From: Candidatus Dojkabacteria bacterium
GTDB taxonomy: Bacteria > Patescibacteriota > Dojkabacteria > B142 > WJKM01
DNA: 64,000 nucleotides
Direction of reading: 5' to 3'
Assembly: GCA_014729085.1 (NCBI GenBank)
Contig: WJKM01000009.1
Coordinates: 61,973 to 125,972, forward strand
The position numbers and the translations under genes are program-made. A model generated the notes under the pieces. The model made no database searches, was not told the origin of the DNA, and saw only the letters and a program-made list of their open reading frames with translations. How positions within the stretch are numbered: position 1 is the first letter of the stretch; every line of letters starts with the position of its first letter. Below, in pieces: positions 16,076 through 64,000 of the stretch.

Positions 16076-17338
16076 TTATTTTTTATTTAATTTGCATCTA
16101 CCCAAATCTTTATGGGCTTTAACAAAAGTTCTGCTAGCAAATGCAGCATGAAGACTAATTTCTCCTGCCAGTACAGCAGTTCCAATAATTTCGGCTAATT
16201 TTTGGGTAAGATTTATTTCTTTTTCTTCTTTTTCTTTTAAATTTTTACTTATGTTGGATAGAATTATTTTTTGACATTCGTTCTGAGTTGCAAGCGTTGT
16301 TCCTCCTCCTACTGTAGCAATATTTAATGAGGGGATTCGAGTATGTATATAAAGTCCTTCCTTATTTTTTTCCATATTTAGAGATGCAAGACTTCCACCA
16401 ACTACTTGAGCTGGATCCTGACCTGTGGCAATAAATATTGCAGCAAGCATATTAGCTGCATGTGCATTGAATCCAAAGCTTCCTGCCATTTGACCACCAA
16501 GCCAAATTTTGTTTTTGTTAACCTCTAGAATATCTTCGGGATTGGATTTCAGGTATTTTTTAACTATATTTTGAGGAACTGTAACTTCTGCTTCAACGAT
16601 TCTACCTCTTCCTTTAATAGTATTGATATATGCTGGTTTTTTATCTATACACATATTCCCCGAAATTGCAATAGTTTTTATGCCTTTATATTCTGTCTCA
16701 ATCCAAGAACATATTTTTTTTGTTGCAATAACTGCCATATTCATACCCATTGCATCACCGGTATCAAATACAAACCTAATCCAGATATTTTTACCATTCG
16801 AATAAAACTCATATTCCTTTATTGTTAAATATTTGTCAGTTTGATCACCAACTTTTTTGATCTTTTTAAAGTTATCTTTAAACCATTTCTCAAATTTTGA
16901 GGCTTCTTTGATATTTTTGACTCTGAAAAGAGGAGCACGGGTAATTCCAACATATTTTGATGTGACAGTTGCACCTCCTGATTCTCTTATTATCTTTGAT
17001 CCTCTATTAACACTTGCAACTAAAGCTCCCTCTGTAGTTGCAAGGGGAATTAAATATTCCCCATTTGCATGATTGCCTTTGACAGTCATAGGACCTGCAA
17101 TGCCTATTGGCAAACATGCTCCTCCAATTACATTTTCGCAATTACGTCCATAAATTTTTTTAGGGGAGAATGGAAATTTTGAGAGTGAGTCAAGTTTAGC
17201 ATTAATAAGATCTGCAATATATTCTCTTCGAATTTCTATAGCTTTGTTATGATCAGTATATTTCTCAATTTCATAAAGTTTAATCTTATTTTGATTCAAT
17301 TGTTTAATTATATCTTTCTTCTTCATAAATATAGCCAC
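16076..17338 (-). CDS. 3-hydroxy-3-methylglutaryl-CoA reductase (class I-like)
   Basis: ENVIGGACLPIGIAGPMTVKG, DAMGMNM and GTVGG blocks. It is 420 aa. Confidence 0.85.
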   Translation of the reverse strand: MAIFMKKKDIIKQLNQNKIKLYEIEKYTDHNKAIEIRREYIADLINAKLDSLSKFPFSPKKIYGRNCENVIGGACLPIGIAGPMTVKGNHANGEYLIPLATTEGALVASVNRGSKIIRESGGATVTSKYVGITRAPLFRVKNIKEASKFEKWFKDNFKKIKKVGDQTDKYLTIKEYEFYSNGKNIWIRFVFDTGDAMGMNMAVIATKKICSWIETEYKGIKTIAISGNMCIDKKPAYINTIKGRGRIVEAEVTVPQNIVKKYLKSNPEDILEVNKNKIWLGGQMAGSFGFNAHAANMLAAIFIATGQDPAQVVGGSLASLNMEKNKEGLYIHTRIPSLNIATVGGGTTLATQNECQKIILSNISKNLKEKEEKEINLTQKLAEIIGTAVLAGEISLHAAFASRTFVKAHKDLGRCKLNKK

Positions 17339-17347
17339 TTATTTAAA

Positions 17348-18424
17348 TTATTTTTCGAAATTCCAAAAGCAATCTTTACGTTTGGTCACTTTGTGTTTTG
17401 AGAGTTGTTTTAAATTTTTTGCACCAGATAAAAACATTGCCGTTCTTAATTCATCCTTATATCCTTGAATTATTTTCATGACAGCTTCTGGTGATTGAGT
17501 TGCTGCTTTTAGGAAAGGACGGGCAGATGTAGCCATGTTAGCTCCTAATGCAATAGAGATTGCTATGTGCAATCCACTACGTACTCCTCCTCCTGCAATT
17601 ATATTTAGTCCTTTTATTTTTTTTAGGTCTAATATAGCTTCAGGTGTTGGAATACCCTGAGAACGAAATATATAACCAAGATTACCTTGGGTCCTTTTTT
17701 CTTTATGTTTTAGTCTTCTATAACCTTCAATTAATGCCCAGCTAGTTCCACCAGTTCCAGAAACATCTATCCATTTTACTCCTATTTCGTATAATCTTTT
17801 AGCTGTTTTATAATCTATACCATGACCTACTTCTTTAATAATAACTGGAATTTCCAATTTTGTTACAATTTTTTCGAATTTGTTTAATAAATTTTTGTAA
17901 TTTTTATTGCCCTCGGGTTGAATTGCTTCTTGTAGATGATTAATATGAAAAAAGATCCCGTCTGCCGAGACCTTATCAATTAGATTTTGGATATCATCGT
18001 ATTTCATACCATAGTTAAGTTGCACAATACCCAGATTAGTAAACATAGGTATATTCGGACAATGTTTTTTAACATCAAAACTAGATAAAGTTTCTGGCTT
18101 TTCATAAACTATGCGCATGGATCCAAGTCCAAAACCAATTTTTTCTTCTTCACATGCGATAGCAATATTCGTATTTATCTTTTTAGCAAGTTGACTCCCA
18201 CCTGTCATTGAAGAAATATAAAAGGGAAATGAAAGTGGAAAACCAAAGAAGGAAAAATTTGTTTCTATTTCATTCATATCAATCTCTGGCATAGAAACAT
18301 AATCCAAAAAGTACTGCGACAGATATGAAAAATGAGGTTCTACGTCCTCATGCAATACGATATCTAAGTGTTCGTTTTTCCTTTTACGAATTTTGTTCAT
18401 TTTGTATTTAATTTTATATTTCAT
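17348..18424 (-). CDS. fni: Isopentenyl-diphosphate delta-isomerase, type 2 (FMN-dependent)
   Basis: RKNEHLDIVL, SSMTGG, IIKEVGHGI, IDVSGTGGTSWA, GGVRSGL blocks are colinear with IDI-2. Confidence 0.8.
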   Translation of the reverse strand: MKYKIKYKMNKIRKRKNEHLDIVLHEDVEPHFSYLSQYFLDYVSMPEIDMNEIETNFSFFGFPLSFPFYISSMTGGSQLAKKINTNIAIACEEEKIGFGLGSMRIVYEKPETLSSFDVKKHCPNIPMFTNLGIVQLNYGMKYDDIQNLIDKVSADGIFFHINHLQEAIQPEGNKNYKNLLNKFEKIVTKLEIPVIIKEVGHGIDYKTAKRLYEIGVKWIDVSGTGGTSWALIEGYRRLKHKEKRTQGNLGYIFRSQGIPTPEAILDLKKIKGLNIIAGGGVRSGLHIAISIALGANMATSARPFLKAATQSPEAVMKIIQGYKDELRTAMFLSGAKNLKQLSKHKVTKRKDCFWNFEK

Positions 18425-49923: not shown

Positions 49924-51072
49924 TTAGTTTATAATATCTGTAATCAGACCTTTTGTGCCAAATCCTACATCGTAAAATTTGTAGTGGTAGTTTGCGGCTA
50001 ATTCTTGAAGTAAACTTTTATTTGAATGATAAGTCAACAGCGCACCTGATTTATCCTTGCCTTGTCCTCCTGCTCCAGAGATTTTACATGCACCTCCCCT
50101 AGATCTAATAATAGCAGAAATTTCCTTGACTCTATCAGATACAACACCTAATTTTTCTAATAAGATACCATTAGAGTTAATAAAATCTATATATTTTTTA
50201 GTACTGAATTTATTACTTTCAGATTCATTAATAAATTGTTCTAAGTTTGTTTGAATTGCATCAAATATTTTATTAGTTCTTCTTCTATTGAATGATTTTT
50301 CTTTTTGTACAAAATTTACCAATTCACCTGTCGATTGATCAGCGGATCCGGTATGAATAATGATTGAATTAGAAAGCATGGATTTTAGATCTGGATTTTT
50401 TATTTCTAATTGTTTTATAGAAGGTTTACTTGTTGATTTTTTTGAAAACTGTATCATTTGTCCATAAACTATTATTGCTGGATCTGCTCCGCTAGGATTC
50501 CCGTGTTGAAACTTTTCATATTCCAGTGTCAGATCAAATATTTTTTTATTATTAAAGTCGATTTCTGCAGCTTTAAGCATAGAAGAGATTAAAGAAGCTC
50601 CTAAAGAAGCAGAAAATCCGAAACCTGCCGAAAAAGGTAAATTGGAATTGAAGTTGATATTAAAAGACGGATAATACCCGAGATGTTTATCAATCTCTGT
50701 TAAGGCAATGGCAAAAATGATTTTAAAAAACCCATAATCTTCGTTAACAACTTTAGATAGTGATTGAAAATCCCCTCCACTCAAATAATTATTACGAGCT
50801 TTTTGGGCTTGTTCATATGTTTTGAATATTTCTTGTTGGGAATAAGACATATCTTTCATTTTATAAAGAGGGTTTTTATACTCCAAGAAATTAATATTTC
50901 CATTTTTGCCCGTTATTTGGGCTTCTGCAGAAGAATTTAAATTAATTGTTGTTAGTATCGCATCATACTTAGGATAGACTACTGTATGTTCACCAAATAG
51001 AATTGTTTTTCCCGGTGTAACTGCAAATGCTTTTGACATATTAAAGTAATTTATAATATTGGAAAATATCAA
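49924..51072 (-). CDS. GHMP kinase, probable phosphomevalonate kinase (could instead be a second mevalonate-kinase paralog)
   Basis: GKTILFGEHTVVY, GHMP motif NLPFSAGFGFSASLGASL, C-terminal ISGAGGQG. It is the last gene of the mevalonate operon. Confidence 0.5.
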   Translation of the reverse strand: MIFSNIINYFNMSKAFAVTPGKTILFGEHTVVYPKYDAILTTINLNSSAEAQITGKNGNINFLEYKNPLYKMKDMSYSQQEIFKTYEQAQKARNNYLSGGDFQSLSKVVNEDYGFFKIIFAIALTEIDKHLGYYPSFNINFNSNLPFSAGFGFSASLGASLISSMLKAAEIDFNNKKIFDLTLEYEKFQHGNPSGADPAIIVYGQMIQFSKKSTSKPSIKQLEIKNPDLKSMLSNSIIIHTGSADQSTGELVNFVQKEKSFNRRRTNKIFDAIQTNLEQFINESESNKFSTKKYIDFINSNGILLEKLGVVSDRVKEISAIIRSRGGACKISGAGGQGKDKSGALLTYHSNKSLLQELAANYHYKFYDVGFGTKGLITDIIN

Positions 51073-51889
51073 TCAACCCATTTTGATCAACATGGCTACC
51101 AATACAGCTGTTATCGTAACGCATAATTTTCTTCTTAAGATTTTTGTGTCCATTAGCTAGCGTAGCTTTATAACTGCATTCTGAAATGAAATCCCAGTCA
51201 TTCATTCCATCACCTACACCTAAGGTATATTGCAGGTTAAGTGGAATAACCTTTACTAGTTCCAGTAATCCAGATTTTTTACTTATATTTTTACATGTTA
51301 ATACAGCCGCCCAATAACTACCGAGTTTGGGTGCATAACTCCATTTAAAATCAATATGGTTATCATAATTTTGAATTCTTTTTTCTATATTTGTTTTATA
51401 ATCTTGAAGAGTGAATAAGCTTACTCTTACTATCTTTTCGTTGTTGATAATTTCCTGAAGATTATCAACTTTCATCGGTCCTATTCCTCTTAACTCCGTT
51501 AAAATATCTGTGAGATTCGATTGTTGTGCTGTGTCGATATAGTAATTTTTAGTTGTATTTATTTCTGTATAAATATTTGATTCTATACTATCCTTAATAA
51601 TTTTTTTTGCTATATCTCTATTTATATAATATATGCTTAATTTTTTACTTTTTGGTGAGTAAACAATTGCTCCATTATCAGATATAAATGGAATATTTTC
51701 TAGGTCTAAATATTTGATCAGTTCTTTAGTAGCTACCATAGGTTTAGCTGTACATAGAATAATCTGAATTTTGTTTTCTTGGATTATCTTTAGCATCTCT
51801 ATTACTTTTGGATTCGGTTTAGGATAATTGAATCCATTTTTACTTCCTATGAGTACACCATCTATATCAAGGATAATTGCTTGGATCAT
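51041..51889 (-). CDS. Cof-type HAD-IIB phosphatase
   Basis: Motif I LDIDGVL and motif IV GDGMND, 282 aa. It overlaps the GHMP kinase gene by 32 nt. Confidence 0.6.
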   Translation of the reverse strand: MIQAIILDIDGVLIGSKNGFNYPKPNPKVIEMLKIIQENKIQIILCTAKPMVATKELIKYLDLENIPFISDNGAIVYSPKSKKLSIYYINRDIAKKIIKDSIESNIYTEINTTKNYYIDTAQQSNLTDILTELRGIGPMKVDNLQEIINNEKIVRVSLFTLQDYKTNIEKRIQNYDNHIDFKWSYAPKLGSYWAAVLTCKNISKKSGLLELVKVIPLNLQYTLGVGDGMNDWDFISECSYKATLANGHKNLKKKIMRYDNSCIGSHVDQNGLIDIFQYYKLL

Positions 51890-51923
51890 ATTACAATATT
51901 TATAAAGTCATATATTTATTGAA

Positions 51924-52550
51924 TTATAATACATTTAGTAAATCTAAATCTTTTAAGTAAGATTCAAGCTGCTCAGGATCGTGGTACAAAAATGTATTAA
52001 TCTTTGTAAGTTTTGCATTCAAAAGATACTCTTCTTTATTATCAATCATTAAAGTTTCTGAAGGATTAATATCTAACTTTTGGATTACATATTTGTAGAC
52101 TTTGGTGCTTTGTTTAATTGCTTTTATTTGAGAGGATAAAAATATATTTGAATGAAAATATTTATGAATACCTTGAGGTGAGTTTTTATTTGTTTCTAAA
52201 TATTGAACTAAAATATTATAAGAGTTAGAAAGAACTGCTAGAAGTATTTCAGGCTTAATTTTTTTGATAATTTCAATAACATTTGGATCTGGACTTTCAA
52301 ATATTTGTAACGATTGTTTAAATAGCTGCTTATTTTCTTCGTTTATTTTTACTTTCAATTGTTTGAGAGCAAAGTTTGCATACTCATTAAAAGAAATTGT
52401 TCCCTTGCAATAATTATCATAATACTTTTGTCTATTAGTTCTAGTAATTTTTTTAAACTGTTTTATACTTTTATTGAATAAATCAGCTCCTTTTTGCCAG
52501 TTAGTTTTGAATATAACTCCTCCAAGGTCAAATATTATATTTTTTATCAT
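51924..52550 (-). CDS. HAD-IA family hydrolase
   Basis: Motif I FDLGGVIF, motif II LSNS and an IDN motif-IV variant. Confidence 0.5.
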   Translation of the reverse strand: MIKNIIFDLGGVIFKTNWQKGADLFNKSIKQFKKITRTNRQKYYDNYCKGTISFNEYANFALKQLKVKINEENKQLFKQSLQIFESPDPNVIEIIKKIKPEILLAVLSNSYNILVQYLETNKNSPQGIHKYFHSNIFLSSQIKAIKQSTKVYKYVIQKLDINPSETLMIDNKEEYLLNAKLTKINTFLYHDPEQLESYLKDLDLLNVL

Positions 52551-52551
52551 A

Positions 52552-53580
52552 TTAGAATAAATGATTATCGGTTAGATATGCACCATTACCAGGCCTATTA
52601 ATTCTTATATCTTTTACTTCTGGTACAGATTCAAGCTTGTTATTAATCTTTTGAACTGTGTCTGGTTCGCAAAGAATATGGACATCCTGCCCGGTATTAA
52701 CTGTAAAATAAGCTTTTATATTTTCTTGTTTGCGCCATTGCTTTATTAGTTTCATTATCTTCAAACTTTCTGGAGTCCAGTAAATTAATTGAGGAGTGGA
52801 ACTTAACATTATGCAGTGTAGTTCCATTGCTTCCAATTCGATGAATTCCCCAAGCTTCTGAAAGTTCTTTTCCTTTATTATTTTCTTACATAATTGATTT
52901 TTTTGTTTCATATATTTAAGCCTAGTCTCAAAAAACGGACTTGTTTGAGCATAAGTATGTCCAATAGATGTTGGTACAAGTTTTTTGTCTTTACTTACAA
53001 CCGCAATAATGTCAATTAATTCCCAGTGATTTTTAGGGAATAATTGTTTTACATATGATGATTCGCTTGTATCTCCGTCAACCCATTCGCAAAAACCTCC
53101 TAAAATAGATCTGCTAGAAGAACCTGATCCTTGGCGTGACAAAATTGTTAACTCTTTATTCTCTATATTAAGATTAGAAGCTGCAGTAGCAGCTTTTGTA
53201 AGTGCAGCGAAACCAGAAGCAGAAGAAGATAATCCGGTACTTGTAGGAAAGTTGTTTTCTGACACAACTTTTGCAAATAATTTAATTCTAGCTCTTTTTC
53301 GAATTCTATCTAAATGCTTGGAAACACGTTTTGCTTCTTTATCAATTTTTTGTCCATCAATAATGATGTCGTCGCTATCATATTTATCTGAGAATTCGAC
53401 TGTTGTGGTTGTTAATAGATTGTCAAGGGTCATTGAAATACTCCCATTAGATGGAAGTCTTAATTTTTCATCTTTTCGGCCCCAATATTTTGTAAATGCA
53501 ATATTTGAACCAGCAATTGCTGTAGATTTCATATCAAATATGTAATATATTAATTTATTAAGTTTAATGTTCTCAGACAC
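52552..53580 (-). CDS. mvaD: Diphosphomevalonate decarboxylase (MVD/PMD family)
   Basis: AGSNIAFTKYWGRKDEKLRLPSNGSISMTLD and the GHMP-like SGSSARS... blocks. Confidence 0.8.
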   Translation of the reverse strand: MSENIKLNKLIYYIFDMKSTAIAGSNIAFTKYWGRKDEKLRLPSNGSISMTLDNLLTTTTVEFSDKYDSDDIIIDGQKIDKEAKRVSKHLDRIRKRARIKLFAKVVSENNFPTSTGLSSSASGFAALTKAATAASNLNIENKELTILSRQGSGSSSRSILGGFCEWVDGDTSESSYVKQLFPKNHWELIDIIAVVSKDKKLVPTSIGHTYAQTSPFFETRLKYMKQKNQLCKKIIKEKNFQKLGEFIELEAMELHCIMLSSTPQLIYWTPESLKIMKLIKQWRKQENIKAYFTVNTGQDVHILCEPDTVQKINNKLESVPEVKDIRINRPGNGAYLTDNHLF

Positions 53581-54050
53581 TTTTTACAGGCTGGAGTTAA
53601 CTTATTAGCAATACTTTTGATTGATTCTTTGTTATAAAACTTTACTTCATCCACCTCTTTACGACTAATCATAAAAGGACCATTGTGAATTCCGGTAAAT
53701 ATTGAAATATAAGCTCTATTTTGTGGAGTATTTGTTATAAATTTTTTTGTAAAGTGTAATTCAATATCTTTTATCCCAAGTTCCTCCTTAACTTCCTTTA
53801 ATGCAGCTTCTTCATATGTTTCACCTTTTTCAACATGACCGGTGGGTGAGTTTGTATACATACCAGGGAAGGTTTTTTTGTTTGTACTTCTTTTTTGGAT
53901 TAAGAATTCACCTTTTTTATTAAGAAGACAAATATGTACTTCTCGATGTAATAATAGTTTAGATGGATTATGGCAAATGCTTCTTGGTTGAAAATCAATG
54001 ATTTTATCATTTTTATCGACAACTATTAGAGTTTCAATTTTTTGATTCAT
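53550..54050 (-). CDS. idi: Isopentenyl-diphosphate delta-isomerase, type 1 (Nudix-like)
   Basis: LHREVHICLLN..G.FLIQKRS..KKTFPGMYTNSPTGH...E.YEEAALKEVKEELGI is colinear with IDI-1 (HRAFS..., K.TFPG.WTNS.CGHP). It overlaps MVD by 31 nt. Confidence 0.7.
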   Translation of the reverse strand: MNQKIETLIVVDKNDKIIDFQPRSICHNPSKLLLHREVHICLLNKKGEFLIQKRSTNKKTFPGMYTNSPTGHVEKGETYEEAALKEVKEELGIKDIELHFTKKFITNTPQNRAYISIFTGIHNGPFMISRKEVDEVKFYNKESIKSIANKLTPACKKCLRTLNLIN

Positions 54051-54146
54051 AAGCCTGCATTAATATATTACATAAATTATAGAATAAATAGTGATTTGAA
54101 GAAATATATCTTATAGTGTATAATAATAGTATATTAAACAAATTAA

Positions 54147-54794
54147 ATGCCAAAAGAAAACTTACAAAATATTGAAAACAAAGAACCTTCTAGTGAAGAA
54201 ATTGAATATGTTGCTGTAATAAATAATGAAGGCGAAGTAGAATTCGAAGCGAGAGATAAAGCATCAAATCCTGAAAATGATCTAAAAAGGTTAATTATAG
54301 GCTTGTTAGGATTTACAAGGAATGAAGAAGGAGAAGATTGTATGATACTTCAAAGACGTTCCAGATCCAAAAAGGAATATCCTGATCATTTAACATTTGC
54401 AGCATCTGGACATATAAATCCTGAAGACTTGGTTGAAGATGAAGTTGATTTTATAGGTGCTATGGCTAGAGAACTAAATGAGGAGATGGGTATTACTACT
54501 ATACCAAGTTTAGCATTAATTTCATCTTTTGAAAGTAGAGAACAAAAAGAAGGATACCCTGATATAAGGAAAGAAATGATGTTAGGGGTTACTCAAATTG
54601 AGCTTTCTCAATTAGAAAATTTTACTACGACAGATGAAGTTAGTAGTTATGAATTAATTCCTTGGGAAAAAGTATTAACTCAGGTCATGACTGATCCAGA
54701 AGATAGGGAAGAGAAGTATAAATTTACAATTCCATTTGAGCAGTCAATTCTTCATTTAGTTGACACAGCAGATGCCTTAATGCGAGAACCTTAA
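54147..54794 (+). CDS. Nudix hydrolase (IDI-1-like fold, acidic N-terminus)
   Basis: Nudix box GHINPEDLVEDEVDFIGAMARELNEEMGI. It runs convergent to and overlaps the mevalonate kinase gene by 4 nt. Confidence 0.55.
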   Translation: MPKENLQNIENKEPSSEEIEYVAVINNEGEVEFEARDKASNPENDLKRLIIGLLGFTRNEEGEDCMILQRRSRSKKEYPDHLTFAASGHINPEDLVEDEVDFIGAMARELNEEMGITTIPSLALISSFESREQKEGYPDIRKEMMLGVTQIELSQLENFTTTDEVSSYELIPWEKVLTQVMTDPEDREEKYKFTIPFEQSILHLVDTADALMREP

Positions 54795-55762
54795 TTTTCT
54801 AATCTGACTCCTTCCACATTAGTCTTAATTTTAATTGGTTCACCTCCTGCGTTTAAGATGGCGTTTTCTATTTGATTCATCTTTGATTTCGGAGCAACAG
54901 CTATCATATTGTCTCCTATACCAGCACCGGAGAGTTTAGCACCAAAAGCTCCAGAATTACGCGCTGCATATACTAGTTTTGAAAGTATTAAACTATTTAC
55001 ACCTAGAGATTCTAAATAACCTTGATTGAAATTCATCAGATCACCAAATAATTTCAAATCATAGTCCAATAGGGCTTTTTTACCTTTCTGTACTAAATAT
55101 GAAATTGAATCAAATATAGAGTTTACTACATTCGGATATTTTTCTAATTTTTCTGCTACTTTTTCTACTATATCTGCGGTATGAGCTTTAGTTTTTGTGT
55201 AACCTATTATTAAAGGCAAGGATTCTACATCAATTTTTTTAATTATTTCTCCTCTTTTAGAGTAAAATAAAGTTTTTCCATATACTGCAGCTGCTATATC
55301 AAATCCAGAGCTTAGTCCTCGAATATCAAAGTGAGTTTTATAAGCCAAATTAAAAACTTGTCTAGGTGTAATTTTAATCCCAAATATCTCGGCCAAAGCT
55401 TTGATTGTACATACTGCAGAAGCAGAAGAGGATCCAAAACCCAATTTTGAAGAGAATTCTGAATTTGTTGAGATCGAAATTCCAGTATCAATTTTATATT
55501 CATCACTAAAGTTTTTAACCGCAGTTTCAATATACAATGCACCTTTGGGAATATCATTCTGCAAAAGTTTATTAAAAGGTTTTTTGTAATTTTTTACTTT
55601 AACATCCGGTGCGTTTAAGATTAAAATATCATCTTTAATAATGTGCATATTAAGATACAGTCTTTGTTCAACGGCTGTAACGATACATGGATGCTTGTGA
55701 ACAACTGAGTGTTCTCCCAATAACATTAATTTCCCAGGAGCAGATACTTTAATTTTTTTCAT
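54791..55762 (-). CDS. mvk: Mevalonate kinase
   Basis: SAPGKLMLLGEHSVV, GHMP motif KLGFGSSSASAV, C-terminal LSGAGIGDNMIA. Confidence 0.75.
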   Translation of the reverse strand: MKKIKVSAPGKLMLLGEHSVVHKHPCIVTAVEQRLYLNMHIIKDDILILNAPDVKVKNYKKPFNKLLQNDIPKGALYIETAVKNFSDEYKIDTGISISTNSEFSSKLGFGSSSASAVCTIKALAEIFGIKITPRQVFNLAYKTHFDIRGLSSGFDIAAAVYGKTLFYSKRGEIIKKIDVESLPLIIGYTKTKAHTADIVEKVAEKLEKYPNVVNSIFDSISYLVQKGKKALLDYDLKLFGDLMNFNQGYLESLGVNSLILSKLVYAARNSGAFGAKLSGAGIGDNMIAVAPKSKMNQIENAILNAGGEPIKIKTNVEGVRLEN

Positions 55763-56506
55763 TTATAATTCAATTTTTAAGTAATTTAGCAGTACATTTT
55801 GGATGGTATTATGTTTAACCTTTTGAATTTTATCAGGAATTTGAGTGTTTTCATCAATATTGTTTGTAATTAGAAACCCTTTTTTAGTTTTTAAAAGAAG
55901 TGGAATATCCCCAACTGAATCTCCAACTGAAAATGTAAAGTTAAAATCAATTTCTTTGAATTTTTTTTTCATAAATTCGGCTTTATTCAATGAGTTACAA
56001 TAAAATAGAACTTCTCCATTGTATTTTTTGTGAGGATCCTTTTTAAGGATTGAGTTTAATTGTCCATTAATTTCAATATGCGGTGCATCTTTATTGAGTA
56101 GATACTTAAATAGTCTTACAAAAGCTCCGGTAGAATTTGTCACAATATAGATTTTAATATCAAGATTATTCAGTTTTTCAAATATAGGTATTACCCAAGA
56201 AGCTATTTGCGAAATTTTTAAATTATTTTTAGAAAAGCTGATTAAATCACTGAAAAGTACATCTTCGGATTTATTCTGATATTCTAAGGCAAGCAAATCA
56301 ATAAAGTCTTTTGCTAATTTATCGTAGTTATGATCAATTTTATAATTAACAACCAAATTCCTAGTATGATTAGAAAAGGTTTCATATTCTTCTTTAAAAT
56401 AAATTTTTTTGTCGGTTTTATAATGAAGTCCAAATTGTAGAATAAATACATGCTCAAATAAAGTTCCATCTAAATCAAACAGTGAATATTTTATCATCAA
56501 TATCAA
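55763..56506 (-). CDS. HAD-superfamily phosphatase
   Basis: Motif I LFDLDGTLFE, motif II VTNST, motif IV VGDSVGDIP. It sits immediately upstream of mvk with no gap. Confidence 0.6.
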   Translation of the reverse strand: MILMIKYSLFDLDGTLFEHVFILQFGLHYKTDKKIYFKEEYETFSNHTRNLVVNYKIDHNYDKLAKDFIDLLALEYQNKSEDVLFSDLISFSKNNLKISQIASWVIPIFEKLNNLDIKIYIVTNSTGAFVRLFKYLLNKDAPHIEINGQLNSILKKDPHKKYNGEVLFYCNSLNKAEFMKKKFKEIDFNFTFSVGDSVGDIPLLLKTKKGFLITNNIDENTQIPDKIQKVKHNTIQNVLLNYLKIEL

Positions 56507-60233: not shown

Positions 60234-60260
60234 TGCAAAGTATCTATGTAGAATTCTAAG

Positions 60261-60346
60261 TGCCGGGAGCGGGACTCGAACCCGCACGCTTTATTAAGAG
60301 CAAAGGATTTTAAGTCCTTCGTGTCTACCAGTTCCACCACCCCGGC
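60261..60346 (-). tRNA. tRNA-Leu (anticodon TAA), class II
   Basis: Manual fold: acceptor GCCGGGG/CCCGGC(T), anticodon stem AAGGA/TCCTT with loop CTTAAAA, long variable arm, T-arm GCGGG-TTCGAGT-CCCGC, 86 nt, discriminator A, no CCA. Confidence 0.85.
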
Positions 60347-60385
60347 TATTAATTATCAGTGTGCAATTCTAGTTAAATAAAAAAG

Positions 60386-60586: not shown

Positions 60587-60985
60587 TTATACTTTTGTCC
60601 ACTTTAATCCATAATGTATTATGCCATCTTTTCCATCCTCAAAATATTTTCTGAAAGTCGGAATAAAAACATCTCCCTTTTGGAGTTTATTATAGTCAAC
60701 GTCAACTATCTGAGTTGTAATTCTCTCGCCATTTTTAAATTCCAGAATACCAACAATATAAGGTTTCATATCTTCAAAACCAGCAGGTGGTGCATTGACT
60801 TCAGACCAAGTTATTAACTTTGCTTCGTTTTCAAATCTATACGCTTCGAATTCGGTATTGCTGTTTTCAGGTTCGACGAAGACTGGTGGATAATACGCTT
60901 TGTCAGTTTTTTTTGATTTACTGCCAATTAATAGATATCTACTTTTAAATTTTCTCCAAATTTTTGAGGGTGATTTTTTATGCAT
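60587..60985 (-). CDS. DUF35-like OB-fold protein (scaffold partner of thiolase/HMG-CoA synthase) lacking zinc-ribbon cysteines
   Basis: It is directly downstream of the thiolase gene. It has the yyPP motif and a C-terminal OB-fold-like region (YIVGILEF..GERITTQIVD) typical of DUF35. No Cys anywhere. Confidence 0.5.
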   Translation of the reverse strand: MHKKSPSKIWRKFKSRYLLIGSKSKKTDKAYYPPVFVEPENSNTEFEAYRFENEAKLITWSEVNAPPAGFEDMKPYIVGILEFKNGERITTQIVDVDYNKLQKGDVFIPTFRKYFEDGKDGIIHYGLKWTKV

Positions 60986-61010
60986 TTTAATTATTGTATT
61001 TAATTATTTA

Positions 61011-62153
61011 TTATATTTTTTCAAATATGTTTACAATACAGGTAGCTCCGCTACCTCCTATATTATGTGTTAGGCCATATTTCATATCTTTTTGAACTTG
61101 TCGTTTACCTGCTTTTCCGGTAAGTTGTTTAACAATTTCAACTGCTTGCTTAACTCCAGTGGCACCTACAGGATGTCCTGCTGCTTTAAGCCCTCCGGAC
61201 AGGTTTGTTGGAATTGAGCCATCCATTTGAGTATCTCCAGATTCCACAAATTGACCCCCTTTACCTTTCTCAACAAACCCAAGATCTTCATAAGCTAAAA
61301 TTTCAGCTATTGAAAAGCAGTCATGTACCTCCATAATATCAATATCTTTATTTTTAAGCTTTGATTGTTTAAATGCTCTTTCTTTAGCTTTGATTGTAGC
61401 TTCTAGAATTGTGATATCTTTTCGATCATGTAAGGCAAGGGAATCTTGAGCATGTCCAGATGCTATTAGTCTAATCTCAGATTTTTTCTTTGATGACATT
61501 ACAATTGCAGCCGCTCCATCTGAAATAGGAGAGGAATCGAAAAGTTTTAAAGGATCAGCAACAACCGGAGATCTTAAAACCTGTTCAACAGTAATCTCTT
61601 TTTGGAAATGTGCGTCTGGATTAAGAGTACCGTGTTTATGATTTTTTACAGAGCACATTGCTAGCTGTTCATGACTTGTTCCATATCTATTCATATGCTC
61701 TCTTGCGATCATTGCATAAAGTGATGGGAAAGTCACACCATAAAAAGCTTCCCATTCCTCATCGCTTGCGCCTGATAAACCTTCAGTTGCATTTTTAGTG
61801 TTTACATCGGTCATTTTTTCAACTCCTAGAATCAGGGCATTTTCTGAAGATCCACTAAGTAAATCAAGGAAACCAGCTCTAATTGCTGCAGAACCTGAGG
61901 CACAAGCTGCTTCAATATGAAACGCTGGACAATCCAGACCTAATTCTGTTGCAAATAAAGCACCTAGGTGGTCTTGTCCTGTGTAATGGGATGCTGCCAT
62001 ATTTGCAACATATAACACATCAATATCCTGAAGATTTATTTTAGAGTTTTGAACGGCATTAACTGCAGCCTCAACTCCAAGATCTCTAAAGTCTCGTTTC
62101 CAAAGTTCCCCAAATTTGGTTGTGTAGCCTCCGTTAACATATACTTGTTTCAT
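61011..62153 (-). CDS. Thiolase (acetyl-CoA C-acetyltransferase, archaeal/SCP-x-like type)
   Basis: The active-site Cys region EAACASGSAAIRAG, the C-terminal NIGGSGATCIVNI and overall 380-aa thiolase colinearity. Confidence 0.8.
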   Translation of the reverse strand: MKQVYVNGGYTTKFGELWKRDFRDLGVEAAVNAVQNSKINLQDIDVLYVANMAASHYTGQDHLGALFATELGLDCPAFHIEAACASGSAAIRAGFLDLLSGSSENALILGVEKMTDVNTKNATEGLSGASDEEWEAFYGVTFPSLYAMIAREHMNRYGTSHEQLAMCSVKNHKHGTLNPDAHFQKEITVEQVLRSPVVADPLKLFDSSPISDGAAAIVMSSKKKSEIRLIASGHAQDSLALHDRKDITILEATIKAKERAFKQSKLKNKDIDIMEVHDCFSIAEILAYEDLGFVEKGKGGQFVESGDTQMDGSIPTNLSGGLKAAGHPVGATGVKQAVEIVKQLTGKAGKRQVQKDMKYGLTHNIGGSGATCIVNIFEKI

Positions 62154-62169
62154 TTAAAACGTGTAAAAA

Positions 62170-62601
62170 TTAGATTTGGCTTGAATTTTTTTCAACTTTT
62201 ATGTCTGTTTCTTGTATTTCATCGAATTGATAGAAACCTGTTTTGGGATCTTTCTTTATTTTGAAATATCTTACCGGAATTTTTAACTCTTTTTCACAAT
62301 AATAAATCTCAGCAGCTACACCATCAGAGACTTTATCAAAAACCCATAGTTCATTAGCTAATCTGATTAAATTATCATTGACATCATATATCAATTTTCT
62401 TGAGATAGTATCCCCAAAAAAATAGTTAAAATTCATGAATGGATTAAGGGGAACTAATTTTTTTTCTAGAATAAATTTGGATATATGTTCTCTTAGAAAA
62501 AATTTTTGTTTAGAGTATGCAGGATATATTACCTTGAATTTTTTCCTTTTTCTCTTTAAATCATTTTTATTTATAATTTTTTGAATTTTTTTAATCATCA
62601 A
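62170..62601 (-). CDS. Hypothetical protein (possible nucleoside-2-deoxyribosyltransferase-like/DUF4406 fold)
   Basis: A weak pattern (LVPLNPF...ELWVFD..SDGVAAEIYYC) only. Confidence 0.25.
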   Translation of the reverse strand: MMIKKIQKIINKNDLKRKRKKFKVIYPAYSKQKFFLREHISKFILEKKLVPLNPFMNFNYFFGDTISRKLIYDVNDNLIRLANELWVFDKVSDGVAAEIYYCEKELKIPVRYFKIKKDPKTGFYQFDEIQETDIKVEKNSSQI

Positions 62602-63394
62602 TATTTTTTAATTTTTTGTTAACAAGTATGAATATACCAAATAGTAAAACTAGTCCAGAACTATTAATCACAATATATGCAGTTGATTTTCTAAGCATTG
62701 AGTTCCGTTCCGTAACATTTGAATATACCCCTGAAACGTTGTATCCTCTTGAAGATAAGCCACAATCAGTATTTACATAATTTGAGAGAAGATTTGCAGA
62801 ATTTGTAACATCTACATAATGTGCAAGTTTGGAATAATTAAAAAATGTTCCTTTTGGGAACCATTTATATACAACTTTTGTCTCTTTGTTATTTTCATTA
62901 CCTTCCTGAATATTTTCAATTTCTACTTTCTTTTCTATTTCATCTGCAGGAAATAGAATTGTACAAGAAGCTACATCGCTTTGACCATTCATATCTATAA
63001 TTGAAAGTCTTACATTATAATATCCTGGATATTTAAATTGATGGGCAAGTTTTTTTTCACCGACGAGACCTGTTCCATCATCTATTCGCCAAATATACTT
63101 TTCAACCTCATCTTTATACGTTTTGGAAATAGAGGCATCAAATTCAATTATTCTATTTTCCCAGTCTATATTTGCGACAAATCTTGCAATAGGATTGAAG
63201 GCAGCTGGCCATATTTCTGAACCCTTTATTTTAACTAAGTCTGTAATATAAGGAATTGTAGAGAGTAAAAGTGATATTTCTAGAAAAAGAAAAATACATA
63301 ACAAAAATATTTTTAGTATTTTTTTATATTTTTTCTTAAAAAAATCAGTTGTAGTATTGAATAATCTTTCTATTGTCTTTTTCTTTTTAGCCAT
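62591..63394 (-). CDS. Membrane-anchored protein with a PKD-like domain
   Basis: An N-terminal TM helix. WRIDDGTG......HQFKYPGYYNVRLSIIDMNGQSDVASCTI matches the PKD pattern WdFGDG...HtY..pG.YtVtLtVtD. Confidence 0.45.
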   Translation of the reverse strand: MAKKKKTIERLFNTTTDFFKKKYKKILKIFLLCIFLFLEISLLLSTIPYITDLVKIKGSEIWPAAFNPIARFVANIDWENRIIEFDASISKTYKDEVEKYIWRIDDGTGLVGEKKLAHQFKYPGYYNVRLSIIDMNGQSDVASCTILFPADEIEKKVEIENIQEGNENNKETKVVYKWFPKGTFFNYSKLAHYVDVTNSANLLSNYVNTDCGLSSRGYNVSGVYSNVTERNSMLRKSTAYIVINSSGLVLLFGIFILVNKKLKNIDD

Positions 63395-63418
63395 AAGTAA
63401 TAGACTTCTGAAGTAATT

Positions 63419-64000
63419 TTAATGAATTAATTTCTCCGTATGACGGACATATTCACCATAGGTAAGATAGATTTTTTTATTCAGTTGCTCATCAATATCC
63501 AGATCAAATTTTAATTTATCAATATTTTTCCGGTAACTAATAATATTTTTTGTTACCTCCAAAGCTATTGAATCACTACCCGCTCCGGAACCATAGCTGG
63601 TTACTAAGATTTTTTCTCCCGGATTAGCATTATCTAATACAGCTGCAAGCCCTAATAAGGAACAGGCAGAGTAGGTATTGCCTAGTTTTGAGACTATGAA
63701 GCCATGTTTCAGTTGTTCTTTATTTACTCCAAGATTTTTTGCAGCAACTAATGGGAATTTTCCATTAGGCATATGAAATATAACATGGTTGAAATCTGAT
63801 ATCTGCATTTTGGCTTCTTTTAATAGTTGCTTGGTAGCGCTTTTAATGTGTTTAAAATATGCAGGTTTTCCGGTAAATCTACCTCCGTGTTTAGGAAAAT
63901 GTCTATGTTCCCTTCTCCAGAAATCGGGAGTATCGGAAGTATATGAGGTAGTATGGATTATTCTTGCGATAACATCTTTATCACCAACAATAAATGCTGC
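63419..64000 (-). CDS. HMG-CoA synthase, C-terminal part (gene runs off the window end; N-terminus not in window)
   Basis: Manual extension of the reading frame upstream of the Met at 63808 shows no stops up to position 64000 (..AAFIVGDKDVIARIIHTTSYTSDTPDFWRREHRHFPKHGGRFTGKPAYF..). The C-terminal block SYGSGAGSDSIALEV and the rest are colinear with archaeal-type HMGCS/MvaS. Confidence 0.7.
   Translation of the reverse strand, partial: AAFIVGDKDVIARIIHTTSYTSDTPDFWRREHRHFPKHGGRFTGKPAYFKHIKSATKQLLKEAKMQISDFNHVIFHMPNGKFPLVAAKNLGVNKEQLKHGFIVSKLGNTYSACSLLGLAAVLDNANPGEKILVTSYGSGAGSDSIALEVTKNIISYRKNIDKLKFDLDIDEQLNKKIYLTYGEYVRHTEKLIH

What the first reader, a model, noticed from the sequence alone, without database searches (positions are those of the whole stretch)
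49924..56506. Mevalonate operon interleaved with three HAD phosphatases and a Nudix hydrolase
The minus-strand operon reads HAD(55763-56506)-MVK-[convergent Nudix, plus strand]-IDI-1-MVD-HAD-HAD-GHMP kinase(PMK-like). Junctions are zero-gap or overlapping (MVD/IDI overlap 31 nt, HAD/GHMP overlap 32 nt), so the HAD genes are co-transcribed with the pathway genes. HAD and Nudix enzymes hydrolyse phosphate or diphosphate esters. Their embedding suggests deliberate dephosphorylation of pathway intermediates or products (for example IPP/DMAPP to isopentenyl/prenyl phosphate or alcohols, or an alternative phosphorylation order), or proofreading of toxic prenyl diphosphates. This is not the textbook bacterial mvaK1-mvaD-mvaK2 layout. 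It may represent an undescribed pathway variant or detoxification shunt.
Basis: partly seen in the sequence, partly recalled or inferred. Interest (0 to 1): 0.6.

Follow-up and report, generated by a model that had tools for sequence, protein, structure and literature searches.

The report
Mevalonate gene cluster with built-in phosphatases
A tiny uncultured bacterium (Dojkabacteria) keeps its isoprenoid-precursor (mevalonate) genes packed together with five phosphate-removing enzymes, one of which had been mistaken for a pathway isomerase. Related genomes share the arrangement, which suggests, but does not prove, a built-in valve that strips phosphates from pathway products.

Summary
The layout is real. 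On the minus strand lie HAD-IB, MVK, then a convergent plus-strand Nudix, then Nudix, decarboxylase, HAD-IA, HAD-IIB and a second GHMP kinase. The window comes from a Candidatus Dojkabacteria (CPR) genome.

Two details are wrong:
- The 31- and 32-nt overlaps are longest-ORF artefacts. True gaps are 17 and 1 nt, still tight.
- "IDI-1" is not a canonical isomerase. It lacks Cys67, Glu114, Glu116 and Trp161 but has an intact hydrolase Nudix box. A genuine type-2 IDI sits beside HMGR at 17348-18424.

Relatives of this Cys-less Nudix are fused to MVK, to the decarboxylase, to true IDI-1 and to HAD domains.

Four related clusters all carry a HAD gene downstream of the decarboxylase, and HAD-IIB recurs in three. 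Against a functional link:
- The HAD-IA slot is filled by non-orthologous genes, and HAD-IB is unique to this window.
- HAD-IIB homologues in three other Patescibacteria contigs lie away from mevalonate genes.
- CPR mevalonate operons also carry plainly unrelated inserts.

Best reading (confidence about 0.4): a CPR mevalonate operon with a lineage-conserved Nudix plus HAD set that dephosphorylates C5 isoprenoid (di)phosphates. No substrate has been tested. I rate it a new variant of a known kind, of moderate interest.

The parts
55763..56506 (-). HAD-IB-like phosphatase (probable ATG start at 56497). First gene of the HAD-IB/MVK unit, 0-nt junction with MVK.
   Evidence: Pfam HAD PF12710 at 22 bits and TIGR01488 at 28.7 bits, both below cut-off. 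Motifs read directly: FDLDGTL, VTNS, Lys, GDSVGD. It is 27% identical to the HAD-IB at 45900-46589. No PDB hit. No counterpart in L093 or L095.
54791..55762 (-). Mevalonate kinase (MVK)
   Evidence: TIGR00549 scores 205.9 bits, above the 163 cut-off. It is 45-46% identical to MVK in L001, L093 and L095.
54147..54794 (+). Nudix2: a hydrolase-type paralogue of Nudix1 that converges on MVK with a 4-nt overlap
   Evidence: PF00293 at 40.9 bits. Nudix box RELNEEMGI. It is 30% identical to Nudix1. Homologues are 32% identical in L093, in the same convergent position relative to MVK, and 39% identical in L095, where the gene lies upstream of MVK and is transcribed away from it. No PDB hit.
53550..54050 (-).
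   Evidence: All equivalog scores are below cut-off: YfcD 80.6/152, IDI 74.2/127 and 70.7/105.8. Best PDB hit is YfcD 2fkb. In E. coli IDI numbering it reads K21R, H25, H32, R51, K55, C67T, H69, E87, Y104F, E114N, E116A, W161A. The Nudix box is GX5EX7KEVKEELGI.
52552..53532 (-). CPR-type mevalonate (di)phosphate decarboxylase
   Evidence: TIGR01240 scores 273.6 bits, above the 171 cut-off. Best PDB hit is A. thermophila phosphomevalonate decarboxylase 6n0x at 275.6 bits, against S. aureus DMD at 213.9 (PMC9254496). Specificity positions are R21, R27, T192, S193, H196, shared with most of the 120 closest CPR homologues.
51924..52550 (-). HAD-IA, YihX-like, with motif I FDLGGV (Asp+2 replaced by Gly)
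   Evidence: PF00702 at 43.1 bits and PF13419 at 29.8 bits. Glucose-1-phosphatase NF006991 scores 44.7 bits, far below its 295 cut-off. PDB hits are weak: 4jb3, 2i6x, YihX and the HAD domain of drimenol synthase. No orthologue in L001 or L093.
51041..51889 (-). HAD-IIB (Cof-like, C2 cap) phosphatase, the recurrent HAD of the cluster
   Evidence: PF08282 at 98.4 bits. TIGR01484 scores 56.6 bits, above the 41.8 cut-off. Cof TIGR00099 scores 86.4, below 137. Motifs DIDGV, CTAKP, K204 and GVGDGMND are conserved (A3). Orthologues sit in the mevalonate clusters of L001 (38% identity) and L093 (frameshifted).
49924..51039 (-). GHMP2: an MVK-derived second kinase, the presumed phosphomevalonate kinase
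   Evidence: TIGR00549 scores 132.6 bits (below 163) and Gram-positive PMK scores 31.9 bits. The family profile scores MVK 140 bits, Listeria Lin0012 91 bits and S. pneumoniae PMK 40 bits. It co-occurs with MVK and the decarboxylase in L001, L093, L006/L007 and L094.
17348..18424 (-). Type-2 (FMN-dependent) isopentenyl-diphosphate isomerase, the genuine isomerase of this genome
   Evidence: TIGR02151 scores 357.6 bits, above the 281.3 cut-off. PF01070 also matches. It lies 9 nt upstream of HMGR.
16076..17338 (-). Class I HMG-CoA reductase
   Evidence: PF00368 at 396.9 bits. TIGR00533 scores 432.1 bits, just below the 441.8 cut-off.
60587..64000 (-). Upper pathway: OB/DUF35 protein 60587-60985, archaeal-type thiolase 61011-62153 and HMG-CoA synthase 63419 to beyond 64000. 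Unrelated DUF7768 (62170-601) and PKD-domain (62591-63394) genes interrupt it.
   Evidence: tblastn with the L006 proteins and Pfam.

Best explanation
This is the lower mevalonate-pathway cluster of a Dojkabacteria (CPR) bacterium.

The core is mevalonate kinase, a CPR-type mevalonate (di)phosphate decarboxylase and a second, MVK-derived GHMP kinase that most likely acts as the phosphomevalonate kinase. Isomerisation of IPP to DMAPP is done by a type-2 IDI encoded next to HMG-CoA reductase about 35 kb away.

A lineage-conserved accessory set of phosphohydrolases is embedded in the cluster and very probably co-transcribed with it. It comprises two IDI-like Nudix proteins and one to three HAD phosphatases.
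- The Nudix proteins keep the diphosphate-binding residues of IDI. They have lost its isomerase residues and carry a canonical hydrolase box.
- Of the HADs, the Cof-like HAD-IIB recurs in relatives.

Inferred mechanism: the Nudix enzymes hydrolyse C5 diphosphates to monophosphates (IPP/DMAPP to IP/DMAP, possibly mevalonate diphosphate). A HAD enzyme then removes the remaining phosphate. This would give a co-expressed overflow or pool-control valve for toxic pathway diphosphates.

Shown: gene content, motifs, synteny and domain fusions. Inferred: all substrates and the physiological role.
For: - Identity and organism.
- A true IDI-2 is present.
- Nudix1 lacks Cys67, Glu114, Glu116 and Trp161. 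It keeps K21(R), R51, K55, His25, His32, His69, Glu87 and a GX5EX7KEUXEEXGU box. The box definitions come from PMC5389931.
- Among the domains of its 150 best representatives, every Cys67 domain has an IDI-like degenerate box. Nearly all domains with S/G/A/T at position 67 have an intact RExxEE box.
- Cys-less domains are fused to MVK (7 representatives; P0257 passes TIGR00549), to the CPR decarboxylase (P0146), to bona fide IDI-1 (P0172, P0175, P0176, P0182; P0175 passes both IDI-1 cut-offs) and to HAD-IA domains (P0237, P0239, P0275).
- Synteny at 42-66% protein identity:
  - L001: GHMP2-MVK-Nudix1-decarboxylase-HAD-HAD-IIB.
  - L093: MVK, convergent Nudix2, Nudix1, decarboxylase, a 130-aa gene, HAD-IIB, GHMP2.
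  - L095: Nudix2-like, MVK, Nudix, Nudix1, decarboxylase, HAD.
- Junctions are tight, and there is no terminator-like site at any junction between the co-directional genes of the two units.
- HAD and Nudix genes are enriched in the cluster relative to the rest of the window.
- Precedents for Nudix hydrolysis of IPP/DMAPP exist, for example 10.1101/2023.11.29.569174.
Against: - No enzymology exists for any of these proteins.
- Only HAD-IIB is orthologous across clusters. The gene after the decarboxylase is a YihX-like HAD here, a PGP/PpaX-like HAD in L001 and L095, and a non-HAD in L093. HAD-IB occurs only here.
- The L093 HAD-IIB carries a frameshift.
- HAD-IIB homologues at 32-37% identity in three other Patescibacteria contigs have no mevalonate neighbours.
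- Other CPR mevalonate operons lack HADs.
- Unrelated genes do get inserted into CPR mevalonate operons: a ParE/PhdYeFM pair in L094, and PKD and DUF7768 genes in this window.
- HAD and Nudix genes are common in this genome; three more lie in the window.
- The same Nudix subfamily is also fused to unrelated domains (RrnaAD, IspA, MazG, GNAT).
- The HAD domains of the HAD-Nudix fusions are not specifically related to the window's HADs.
- The relatives have no verified taxonomy, and the sample is four clusters.
Confidence: 0.4

Rival explanations
1. Passenger genes. The HADs, and perhaps Nudix2, are ordinary housekeeping phosphatases for nucleotide, sugar-phosphate or cofactor salvage. They sit in a compact CPR operon through insertion and inherited synteny and have no role in isoprenoid metabolism. 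Only MVK, GHMP2, the decarboxylase and possibly Nudix1 belong to the pathway.
For: - The HAD-IIB family is spread through Patescibacteria, and three of three sampled non-Dojkabacteria loci are not near mevalonate genes.
- Occupants of the HAD-IA slot are non-orthologous, and HAD-IB is unique to the window.
- The best family matches are generic sugar or cofactor phosphatases such as Cof, YcsE-related, YihX and PGP.
- The L093 HAD-IIB is frameshifted.
- Unrelated insertions occur in CPR mevalonate operons.
- HAD and Nudix density is high elsewhere in the window.
Against: - A HAD gene lies downstream of the decarboxylase in all four related clusters, even though the rest of the order has been rearranged and protein identity is only 40-50%.
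- HAD-Nudix fusions exist in the same Nudix subfamily.
- The 1-nt junctions place the HADs between two pathway genes, the decarboxylase and GHMP2.
Confidence: 0.3
2. Alternative phosphorylation order. The decarboxylase acts on mevalonate 5-phosphate, as in the Chloroflexi/haloarchaeal route. GHMP2 or another kinase then phosphorylates isopentenyl phosphate. The phosphohydrolases belong to a non-classical route or an IP/IPP cycle.
For: - The closest solved structure is a phosphomevalonate decarboxylase: 6n0x scores 275.6 bits against 213.9 for a true DMD (PMC9254496).
- PMD-like residues occur at positions 27 (Arg), 192 (Thr) and 196 (His) (PMC3857490 Table 4).
- GHMP2 matches no PMK model above cut-off and resembles MVK more than PMK.
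- CPR genomes often carry unexplained IPK genes syntenic with 'IDI-I' (PMC6107057).
Against: - Position 21 is basic (Arg or Lys) in all 120 closest homologues. DMDs have Lys at this position; the Anaerolinea PMD has Asn.
- TIGR01240 is passed, while the PMD model NF040704 scores 190 against a cut-off of 475.
- The decarboxylase in L001 carries the full DMD signature (K, I, S, R, M) in the same kind of cluster.
- No amino-acid-kinase-family IPK is present in the 64-kb window.
- A conserved second GHMP kinase is what the classical route requires.
Confidence: 0.12
3. Nudix1 is a working type-1 IDI after all, using non-canonical catalytic residues, and is redundant with IDI-2. The first reader's label would then be right.
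For: - It occupies the operon position that the IDI-like gene holds in other CPR.
- It keeps His25, His32, His69, Glu87 and the diphosphate-binding basic residues.
- PMC6107057 counts such genes as IDI-I.
Against: - Cys67, Glu114, Glu116 and Trp161 are all replaced.
- The Nudix box is of the hydrolase type, whereas every Cys-bearing domain in the family has the degenerate IDI-type box.
- All IDI equivalog cut-offs are failed.
- A bona fide IDI-2 is present.
- Tandem proteins pair a true IDI-1 domain with a Cys-less domain, which implies different activities.
Confidence: 0.06

Closest known systems
Mevalonate pathway of the Candidate Phyla Radiation (Hoshino and Gaucher 2018, PMC6107057)
   Same: The enzyme set is the same: archaeal-type thiolase, HMGS and OB protein, class I HMGR, MVK, a second GHMP kinase called PMVK, a decarboxylase called DPMD, and a Nudix-family gene called IDI-I. 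Dojkabacteria are named there as carriers.
   Different: That paper does not mention Nudix hydrolases (a text search found none), and the passages read contained nothing on HAD genes. It treats the Nudix gene as IDI-I. Here that gene lacks the isomerase residues and a type-2 IDI is present. The cluster also carries up to three HAD genes and a second Nudix.
Gram-positive mvaK1-mvaD-mvaK2(-fni) operon
   Same: MVK, decarboxylase and a second GHMP kinase are clustered, and the isomerase is type 2.
   Different: The order differs and five phosphohydrolase genes are interleaved. The second kinase does not reach the PMK models (31.9 bits against a 165.7 cut-off). The decarboxylase has a CPR-specific residue signature. 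IDI-2 sits with HMGR, not in this cluster.
Type-1 isopentenyl-diphosphate isomerase (E. coli Idi, PDB 1nfs, 1hx3 and others)
   Same: Nudix fold, E about 1e-10 to 1e-12 to IDI structures. His25, His32, His69, Glu87 and the basic residues that bind the diphosphate are conserved.
   Different: Cys67 is Thr, Glu114 is Asn, Glu116 is Ala and Trp161 is Ala. The Nudix box is canonical (KEVKEE) instead of RRxxYE. The protein scores below the IDI cut-offs.
E. coli YfcD (PDB 2fkb) and IPP/DMAPP-hydrolysing Nudix enzymes. Examples: plant NUDX1/NUDX3 acting with IPK, human NUDT15/NUDT18 (preprint 10.1101/2023.11.29.569174), and the Methanosarcina mazei IPP/DMAPP-specific Nudix hydrolase (recalled from memory; NCBIfam NF041653 may represent it).
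   Same: YfcD is the best PDB and NCBIfam match. The box is of the hydrolase type. The proposed chemistry is prenyl or isopentenyl diphosphate to monophosphate.
   Different: Scores are far below the equivalog cut-offs (YfcD 80.6/152, NF041653 51.8/300). The YfcD substrate is unknown to me. No activity data exist for the CPR proteins. The plant and human enzymes belong to other Nudix subfamilies.
Phosphomevalonate decarboxylase / IPK route of Chloroflexi and haloarchaea (Dellas 2013, PMC3857490; AthPMD 6n0x)
   Same: The decarboxylase is most similar to AthPMD among solved structures and shares Arg27 and His196 with it.
   Different: Position 21 is basic as in DMDs. A second GHMP kinase is present. 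No IPK is present in the window.
Cof-type HAD-IIB phosphatases. Examples: E. coli Cof (an HMP-PP phosphatase), YidA, YigL, and Plasmodium HAD1, which regulates MEP-pathway flux (these functions are from memory).
   Same: The core motifs and cap type are the same, and TIGR01484 is passed. There is a weak PDB hit to 4qjb, which I recall as PfHAD1.
   Different: The protein scores below the Cof-subfamily cut-off and has no close characterised relative (best PDB hit 44.7 bits). It belongs to a Patescibacteria-wide family that mostly lies outside mevalonate clusters.
HAD-like phosphatase domain of bacterial drimenol synthase (PDB 9m7d, 9mhs)
   Same: It is a HAD-IA variant 3 domain. Dephosphorylation of a terpenoid diphosphate is a function I recall from memory. 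The window's HAD-IA hits it weakly (24 bits).
   Different: The similarity is at superfamily level only. The window protein is a stand-alone YihX-like HAD lacking Asp+2.

Membership tests
Classical (DMD-route) lower mevalonate pathway | Mevalonate kinase | tested here: met
   54791-55762 scores 205.9 bits on TIGR00549, cut-off 163.
Classical (DMD-route) lower mevalonate pathway | Phosphomevalonate kinase | tested here: inconclusive
   GHMP2 reaches no PMK model: TIGR01220 scores 31.9 against 165.7, and there is no hit to the archaeal or ERG8 PMK models. Its family profile scores MVK 140, Listeria Lin0012 91 and S. pneumoniae PMK 40 bits. The role is inferred from conserved co-occurrence with MVK and the decarboxylase.
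Classical (DMD-route) lower mevalonate pathway | Decarboxylase specific for mevalonate 5-diphosphate | tested here: inconclusive
   TIGR01240 scores 273.6, above the 171 cut-off. The specificity residues are mixed (R21, R27, T192, S193, H196), and the closest structure is a PMD.
Classical (DMD-route) lower mevalonate pathway | IPP isomerase present | tested here: met
   Type-2 IDI at 17348-18424 scores 357.6 bits on TIGR02151, cut-off 281.3. It lies outside the reported interval.
Type-1 IPP isomerase (for 53550-54050) | Catalytic Cys67 and Glu116, metal ligand Glu114, and Trp161 (E. coli numbering) | tested here: not met
   The residues are Thr, Ala, Asn and Ala. It is consistent with the PDB alignment and with the box given in PMC5389931.
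Type-1 IPP isomerase (for 53550-54050) | Curated model cut-offs | tested here: not met
   PRK03759 scores 74.2 against 127, and TIGR02150 scores 70.7 against 105.8.
Nudix pyrophosphohydrolase (Nudix1 and Nudix2) | Nudix box GX5EX7REUXEEXGU | tested here: met
   Nudix1 has GHVEKGE-x7-KEVKEELGI. The R-to-K change also occurs in the active E. coli hydrolase YffH (PMC5389931). Nudix2 has RELNEEMGI but altered upstream spacing.
Nudix pyrophosphohydrolase (Nudix1 and Nudix2) | Hydrolytic activity on a diphosphate substrate | not testable with these tools
   This needs an enzyme assay.
IPP/DMAPP-specific Nudix hydrolase (Methanosarcina type, NF041653) | Equivalog score | tested here: not met
   Nudix1 scores 51.8 and Nudix2 scores 28.2 bits against a cut-off of 300.
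HAD-superfamily phosphatase | Four core motifs, including the nucleophile Asp and the Asp+2 general acid/base | tested here: met
   HAD-IIB has DIDGV, CTAKP, Lys and GVGDGMND. HAD-IB has FDLDGTL, VTNS, Lys and GDSVGD. This row applies to HAD-IIB and HAD-IB.
HAD-superfamily phosphatase | Asp+2 general acid/base in HAD-IA 51924-52550 | tested here: not met
   Motif I is FDLGGV, with Gly at Asp+2, as I recall for YihX-type enzymes. The L001 and L095 proteins in the same slot have DVGGV.
Cof-type HAD-IIB subfamily | TIGR00099 cut-off | tested here: not met
   It scores 86.4 against 137. The broader HAD-SF-IIB model TIGR01484 is passed at 56.6 against 41.8.
PMD/IPK (haloarchaea-type) mevalonate route | Isopentenyl phosphate kinase present | tested here: inconclusive
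   No PF00696-type kinase was found among the ORFs of at least 100 aa in the window. The rest of the 198-kb contig and the genome could not be read.

The most novel reading that the evidence does not exclude
The Nudix genes embedded in Dojkabacteria mevalonate operons, counted in the literature as 'IDI-I', are not isomerases. They would be diphosphatases acting on IPP/DMAPP or mevalonate diphosphate. The same may hold for the wider Cys-less subfamily found fused to MVK, to the decarboxylase and to true IDI-1. Together with operon-encoded HAD monophosphatases, and with the so far unexplained IPK of other CPR, they would form a built-in phosphorylation/dephosphorylation control loop on the C5 pool. 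This would be a bacterial counterpart of the plant Nudix/IPK cycle, and it would change how the CPR pathway is reconstructed.
Probability: 0.3. Interest if true: 0.65.

Novelty: new variant of a known kind. Interest (0 to 1): 0.48.

Why it matters
CPR mevalonate genes are used in arguments about how isoprenoid biosynthesis evolved, and the role of several CPR components is explicitly open (PMC6107057).

If the operon-embedded Nudix is a hydrolase, the 'universal IDI-I of CPR' needs re-examination. The pathway would also have a previously unrecognised, co-expressed dephosphorylation branch.

There are practical uses too. Such Nudix/HAD pairs are candidate parts for isopentenol or prenol production and for relieving IPP toxicity in engineered strains.

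If the HADs turn out to be passengers, the case is a caution against reading function from operon membership in compact CPR genomes.

Tried and rejected
- **Exact look-up of the window MVK:** not on record.
- **Genome-contig scan with the GHMP2 alignment:** The second used the generic MVK motif PGKxILFGE and returned only archaeal and Chloroflexi MVK loci. This wasted the only scan.
- **Two metagenome scans with HAD-IIB alignments:** poor patterns, no relatives and one weak hit.
- **Promoter/terminator scan:** promoter-like sites were at the shuffle expectation in this 30% GC DNA, so it was uninformative.
- **Regex detector for HAD/Nudix genes**, meant to measure background adjacency in 80 control loci: too insensitive even on the positive controls, so it was abandoned.
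- **Idea that HAD-IA supplies the cell's pyrophosphatase:** rejected, because a family I inorganic pyrophosphatase is present at 37392-38033.
- **Idea that the HAD-Nudix fusions are a direct Rosetta stone for the window's HADs:** rejected, because their HAD domains show no specific similarity.
- **Literature searches for the M. mazei IPP/DMAPP Nudix hydrolase paper and for YfcD function:** nothing usable in the held library. Those points are marked as memory.
- **Structure prediction:** not run. Fold assignments were already unambiguous from sequence, and a fold would not resolve substrates.

Full report
**Observation**

The ORF table and the Pfam and NCBIfam scans confirm the reported layout.
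- Minus strand: HAD-IB-like protein (55763-56506), mevalonate kinase (54791-55762), a 166-aa Nudix protein (53550-54050), a mevalonate (di)phosphate decarboxylase, a 208-aa HAD-IA (51924-52550), a 282-aa HAD-IIB (51041-51889) and a second GHMP kinase.
- Plus strand: a 215-aa Nudix protein (54147-54794) that converges on MVK with a 4-nt overlap.

The deposited proteins are 371 aa (P0001) and 326 aa (P0048), and homologues begin at the internal ATGs. The genes therefore start at 51039 and 53532.

The real junctions are 0, 17, 1, 34 and 1 nt. The plus-strand Nudix divides the minus-strand genes into two arrays: HAD-IB-MVK, and Nudix1-decarboxylase-HAD-IA-HAD-IIB-GHMP2. A 96-nt divergent spacer lies between them.

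Promoter-like sites are no more frequent than in shuffled sequence, and no terminator-like site lies at a junction inside the arrays. Co-transcription is therefore likely but not shown.

**Source and wider context**

The proteins are identical to entries from a Candidatus Dojkabacteria (WS6, CPR) metagenome-assembled genome on a 198-kb contig.

The rest of the pathway is also in the window.
- Class I HMGR is at 16076-17338. Directly upstream is a type-2 IDI at 17348-18424, which scores 357.6 bits on TIGR02151 against a cut-off of 281.3.
- The archaeal-type thiolase, OB protein and HMGS lie at 60587 to beyond 64000.
- The upper-pathway group is itself interrupted by a DUF7768 gene and a PKD-domain gene.

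No amino-acid-kinase-family IPK is present among the window's ORFs. A CPR mevalonate pathway that includes Dojkabacteria has been described (PMC6107057), so the core pathway is not new.

**The 'IDI-1' is not a canonical isomerase**

The 166-aa Nudix protein fails all curated cut-offs: YfcD 80.6/152, IDI 74.2/127 and 70.7/105.8. Its best solved relative is E. coli YfcD, followed by IDIs.

Against IDI it reads TNSPTGH where IDIs have TNSVCGH, so the catalytic Cys is Thr. In small and large alignments its residues, in E. coli numbering, are:
- Retained: His25, His32, His69, Glu87 and the basic residues at positions 21, 51 and 55.
- Replaced: Asn and Ala at Glu114 and Glu116, and Ala at Trp161.

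Its Nudix box is GX5EX7KEVKEELGI, the hydrolase form. E. coli IDI has GX5EX7RRX2YEXGU (PMC5389931). The plus-strand paralogue (30% identical) has RELNEEMGI.

**The Nudix subfamily**

An exhaustive representative search found 7901 relatives. Among the domains of the best 150:
- All five Cys67 domains have the degenerate IDI-type box.
- Nearly all domains with Ser, Gly, Ala or Thr at that position have an intact RExxEE box.

Cys-less domains are fused to several partners:
- to MVK in seven representatives (P0257 passes the MVK cut-off);
- to the CPR-type decarboxylase (P0146);
- to bona fide IDI-1 domains in tandem proteins (P0172, P0175, P0176, P0182; P0175 passes both IDI-1 cut-offs in its N-terminal half only);
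- to HAD-IA domains (P0237, P0239, P0275).

They are also fused to unrelated domains (RrnaAD, IspA, MazG, GNAT), so not every member need act in isoprenoid metabolism.

The IDI-like genes in Microgenomates-type operons (L006, L094) keep Tyr104, Glu114, Glu116 and Trp161 and have a degenerate box. The loss of isomerase residues is therefore specific to the Dojkabacteria-type genes and the wider Cys-less group. The sequences show a hydrolase-type protein with an IDI-like diphosphate site. That IPP or DMAPP is the substrate is an inference.

**The HADs**

- HAD-IIB passes the HAD-SF-IIB model but not the Cof-subfamily cut-off. It has all core motifs and no close characterised relative.
- HAD-IA is YihX-like, with motif I FDLGGV, so the Asp+2 general acid/base is missing.
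- HAD-IB-like has canonical motifs but only weak profile scores. It is a 27% paralogue of a HAD-IB at 45900-46589.

**Synteny**

Three related clusters were recovered. Their taxonomy is not verified; their proteins are 32-66% identical to the window's.
- L001: GHMP2-MVK-Nudix1-decarboxylase-HAD-IA'-HAD-IIB.
- L093: MVK, convergent Nudix2, Nudix1, decarboxylase, a 130-aa non-HAD gene, HAD-IIB with one frameshift, then GHMP2.
- L095: Nudix2-like, MVK, Nudix, Nudix1, decarboxylase, then after 298 nt the same HAD-IA' family as L001, at the contig end.

Every cluster of this type therefore has a HAD downstream of the decarboxylase, and HAD-IIB recurs in three of the four. The gene order around them has been rearranged.

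Several observations argue against a functional link.
- The window's HAD-IA is not orthologous to HAD-IA', which is PGP/PpaX-like.
- HAD-IB has no counterpart elsewhere.
- HAD-IIB homologues at similar identity in three other Patescibacteria contigs lie among unrelated genes.
- A second kind of Dojkabacteria cluster (L002, L004, L005) and the Microgenomates-type operons (L006-L008, L094) have no HAD.
- L094 carries a ParE/PhdYeFM pair inside its mevalonate operon.

Within the window, HAD or Nudix genes are 5 of 8 cluster genes against 3 of about 49 others (p = 6e-4, boundaries chosen after the fact).

**Kinase and decarboxylase**

GHMP2 keeps the MVK-like motifs, including Lys11 and the HGNPSGxD Asp. 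It scores below the MVK cut-off and far below the PMK models. By profile it sits between MVK and PMK. Its conserved partnership with MVK and the decarboxylase supports a PMK role, as assumed in PMC6107057.

The decarboxylase passes the DMD model. Its closest structure, however, is the Anaerolinea phosphomevalonate decarboxylase (PMC9254496).

At the positions that distinguish DMD from PMD it reads R21, R27, T192, S193, H196. These positions come from PMC3857490 Table 4 and from the two substitutions seen in the 6n0z variant. Reference signatures are:
- AthPMD: N, R, S, T, H.
- S. aureus DMD: K, I, S, R, M.
- The 120 closest CPR homologues: mostly [RK]-R-T-S-[HQM].
- L001: the full DMD signature.

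The substrate cannot be decided from sequence.

**Mechanism**

My best reading is a classical-type lower mevalonate operon. MVK, GHMP2 acting as PMK, and the decarboxylase make IPP, and IDI-2 does the isomerisation. Co-expressed Nudix enzymes convert C5 diphosphates to monophosphates, and a HAD removes the last phosphate. This would act as an overflow or pool-control valve. Confidence is about 0.4.

The rivals are:
- passenger phosphatases (0.3);
- a PMD-type or otherwise reordered route (0.12);
- Nudix1 as a non-canonical isomerase (0.06).

Precedents for Nudix action on IPP/DMAPP exist in plants and humans (for example 10.1101/2023.11.29.569174). From memory, there are also precedents in Methanosarcina mazei and in E. 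coli isopentenol engineering.

**Novelty**

The pathway, and Nudix hydrolysis of isoprenoid diphosphates, are known kinds. I did not find the following described in the library:
- the hydrolase character of the operon-embedded 'IDI-I' in Dojkabacteria alongside a true IDI-2;
- the recurrent HAD partner;
- the fusion pattern that links Cys-less IDI-like Nudix domains to MVK, the decarboxylase, IDI-1 and HAD.

I rate this a new variant of a known kind, of moderate interest. No substrate has been tested, and the comparison rests on four clusters.

Noticed in passing
window 16076-18424 (-): A type-2 IDI (TIGR02151 357.6 bits) and class I HMGR form their own two-gene unit with a 9-nt gap, about 32 kb from the lower-pathway cluster. 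This is the genome's real isomerase.
   Followed up: yes
window 60587-64000 (-): The upper pathway genes (HMGS, archaeal-type thiolase, OB/DUF35 protein) are interrupted by a PKD-domain protein (62591-63394) and a DUF7768 protein (62170-62601). tRNA-Cys and tRNA-Leu lie just downstream (60260-60462).
   Followed up: partly
L002, L004 and L005 (e.g. L004 9096-12724): A second kind of Dojkabacteria cluster reads NTP-transferase, GHMP2, decarboxylase, then a 196-aa guanylate-kinase-like P-loop protein. No MVK, Nudix or HAD is adjacent. In these GHMP2 copies the conserved Asp of the HGNPSGxD motif is Gly.
   Followed up: partly
P0172, P0175, P0176, P0182 (representative library): These tandem proteins join a bona fide IDI-1 domain to a Cys-less, hydrolase-box IDI-like domain. 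The IDI-1 domain has Cys67, Trp161 and a degenerate box. One source names P0175 simply 'isopentenyl-diphosphate delta-isomerase'.
   Followed up: partly
120 closest decarboxylase homologues (P0048-P0167): CPR decarboxylases share a signature ([RK]21, R27, T192, S193, [HQM]196) that lies between the characterised PMD and DMD signatures. The window's decarboxylase is 58-66% identical to these 119 other homologues, the few named ones being Microgenomates-group such as Daviesbacteria. It is only 40-43% identical to the L001 and L004 copies.
   Followed up: partly
L094 6497-7000: A PhdYeFM antitoxin/ParE toxin pair is inserted between the second GHMP kinase and MVK of a Microgenomates-type mevalonate operon.
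   Followed up: no
L093 4941-5812: The HAD-IIB gene in the closest related cluster has a single frameshift near 5270. This is either a pseudogene or an assembly error. It is more similar (44-53%) to homologues not linked to mevalonate genes than to the window's copy (27-43%).
   Followed up: partly
window 36784-38736 (-): A third Nudix gene (202 aa), a family I inorganic pyrophosphatase and ribulose-phosphate 3-epimerase lie in a row.
   Followed up: no
window 27557-28396 (+): A UMPH-1-type pyrimidine 5'-nucleotidase (PF05822, 220.8 bits). From memory, this family belongs to the HAD superfamily and is better known from eukaryotes.
   Followed up: no
window 652-10610 (+): A glycogen/starch metabolism block: GT4/GT5 synthase-like protein, GH57, an M14 carboxypeptidase with an SLH domain, two GH15 proteins and a debranching enzyme (GDE_N/GDE_C).
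   Followed up: no
window 38841-45586 (+): Two very large probable surface proteins lie in the only stretch with raised GC (0.36-0.39) and strong GC skew. One is 739 aa with a Fib_succ_major domain. The other is 1503 aa with DUF4215 and bacterial TSP3 repeats.
   Followed up: no
window 47869-48642 (-) and 46602-47813 (-): A weak histidine-racemase-like protein (NF052224 at 59 bits, far below cut-off) lies immediately upstream of a 403-aa gene that I took, from its sequence alone, to be histidyl-tRNA synthetase (not profile-searched).
   Followed up: no
window 48955-49920 (+): A membrane-anchored class III adenylate/guanylate cyclase converges on GHMP2 with a 3-nt gap. Pyruvate kinase (56638-58080) is divergent from the HAD-IB/MVK unit. 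Pyruvate kinase is also next to the cluster in L095 and near it in L001.
   Followed up: no
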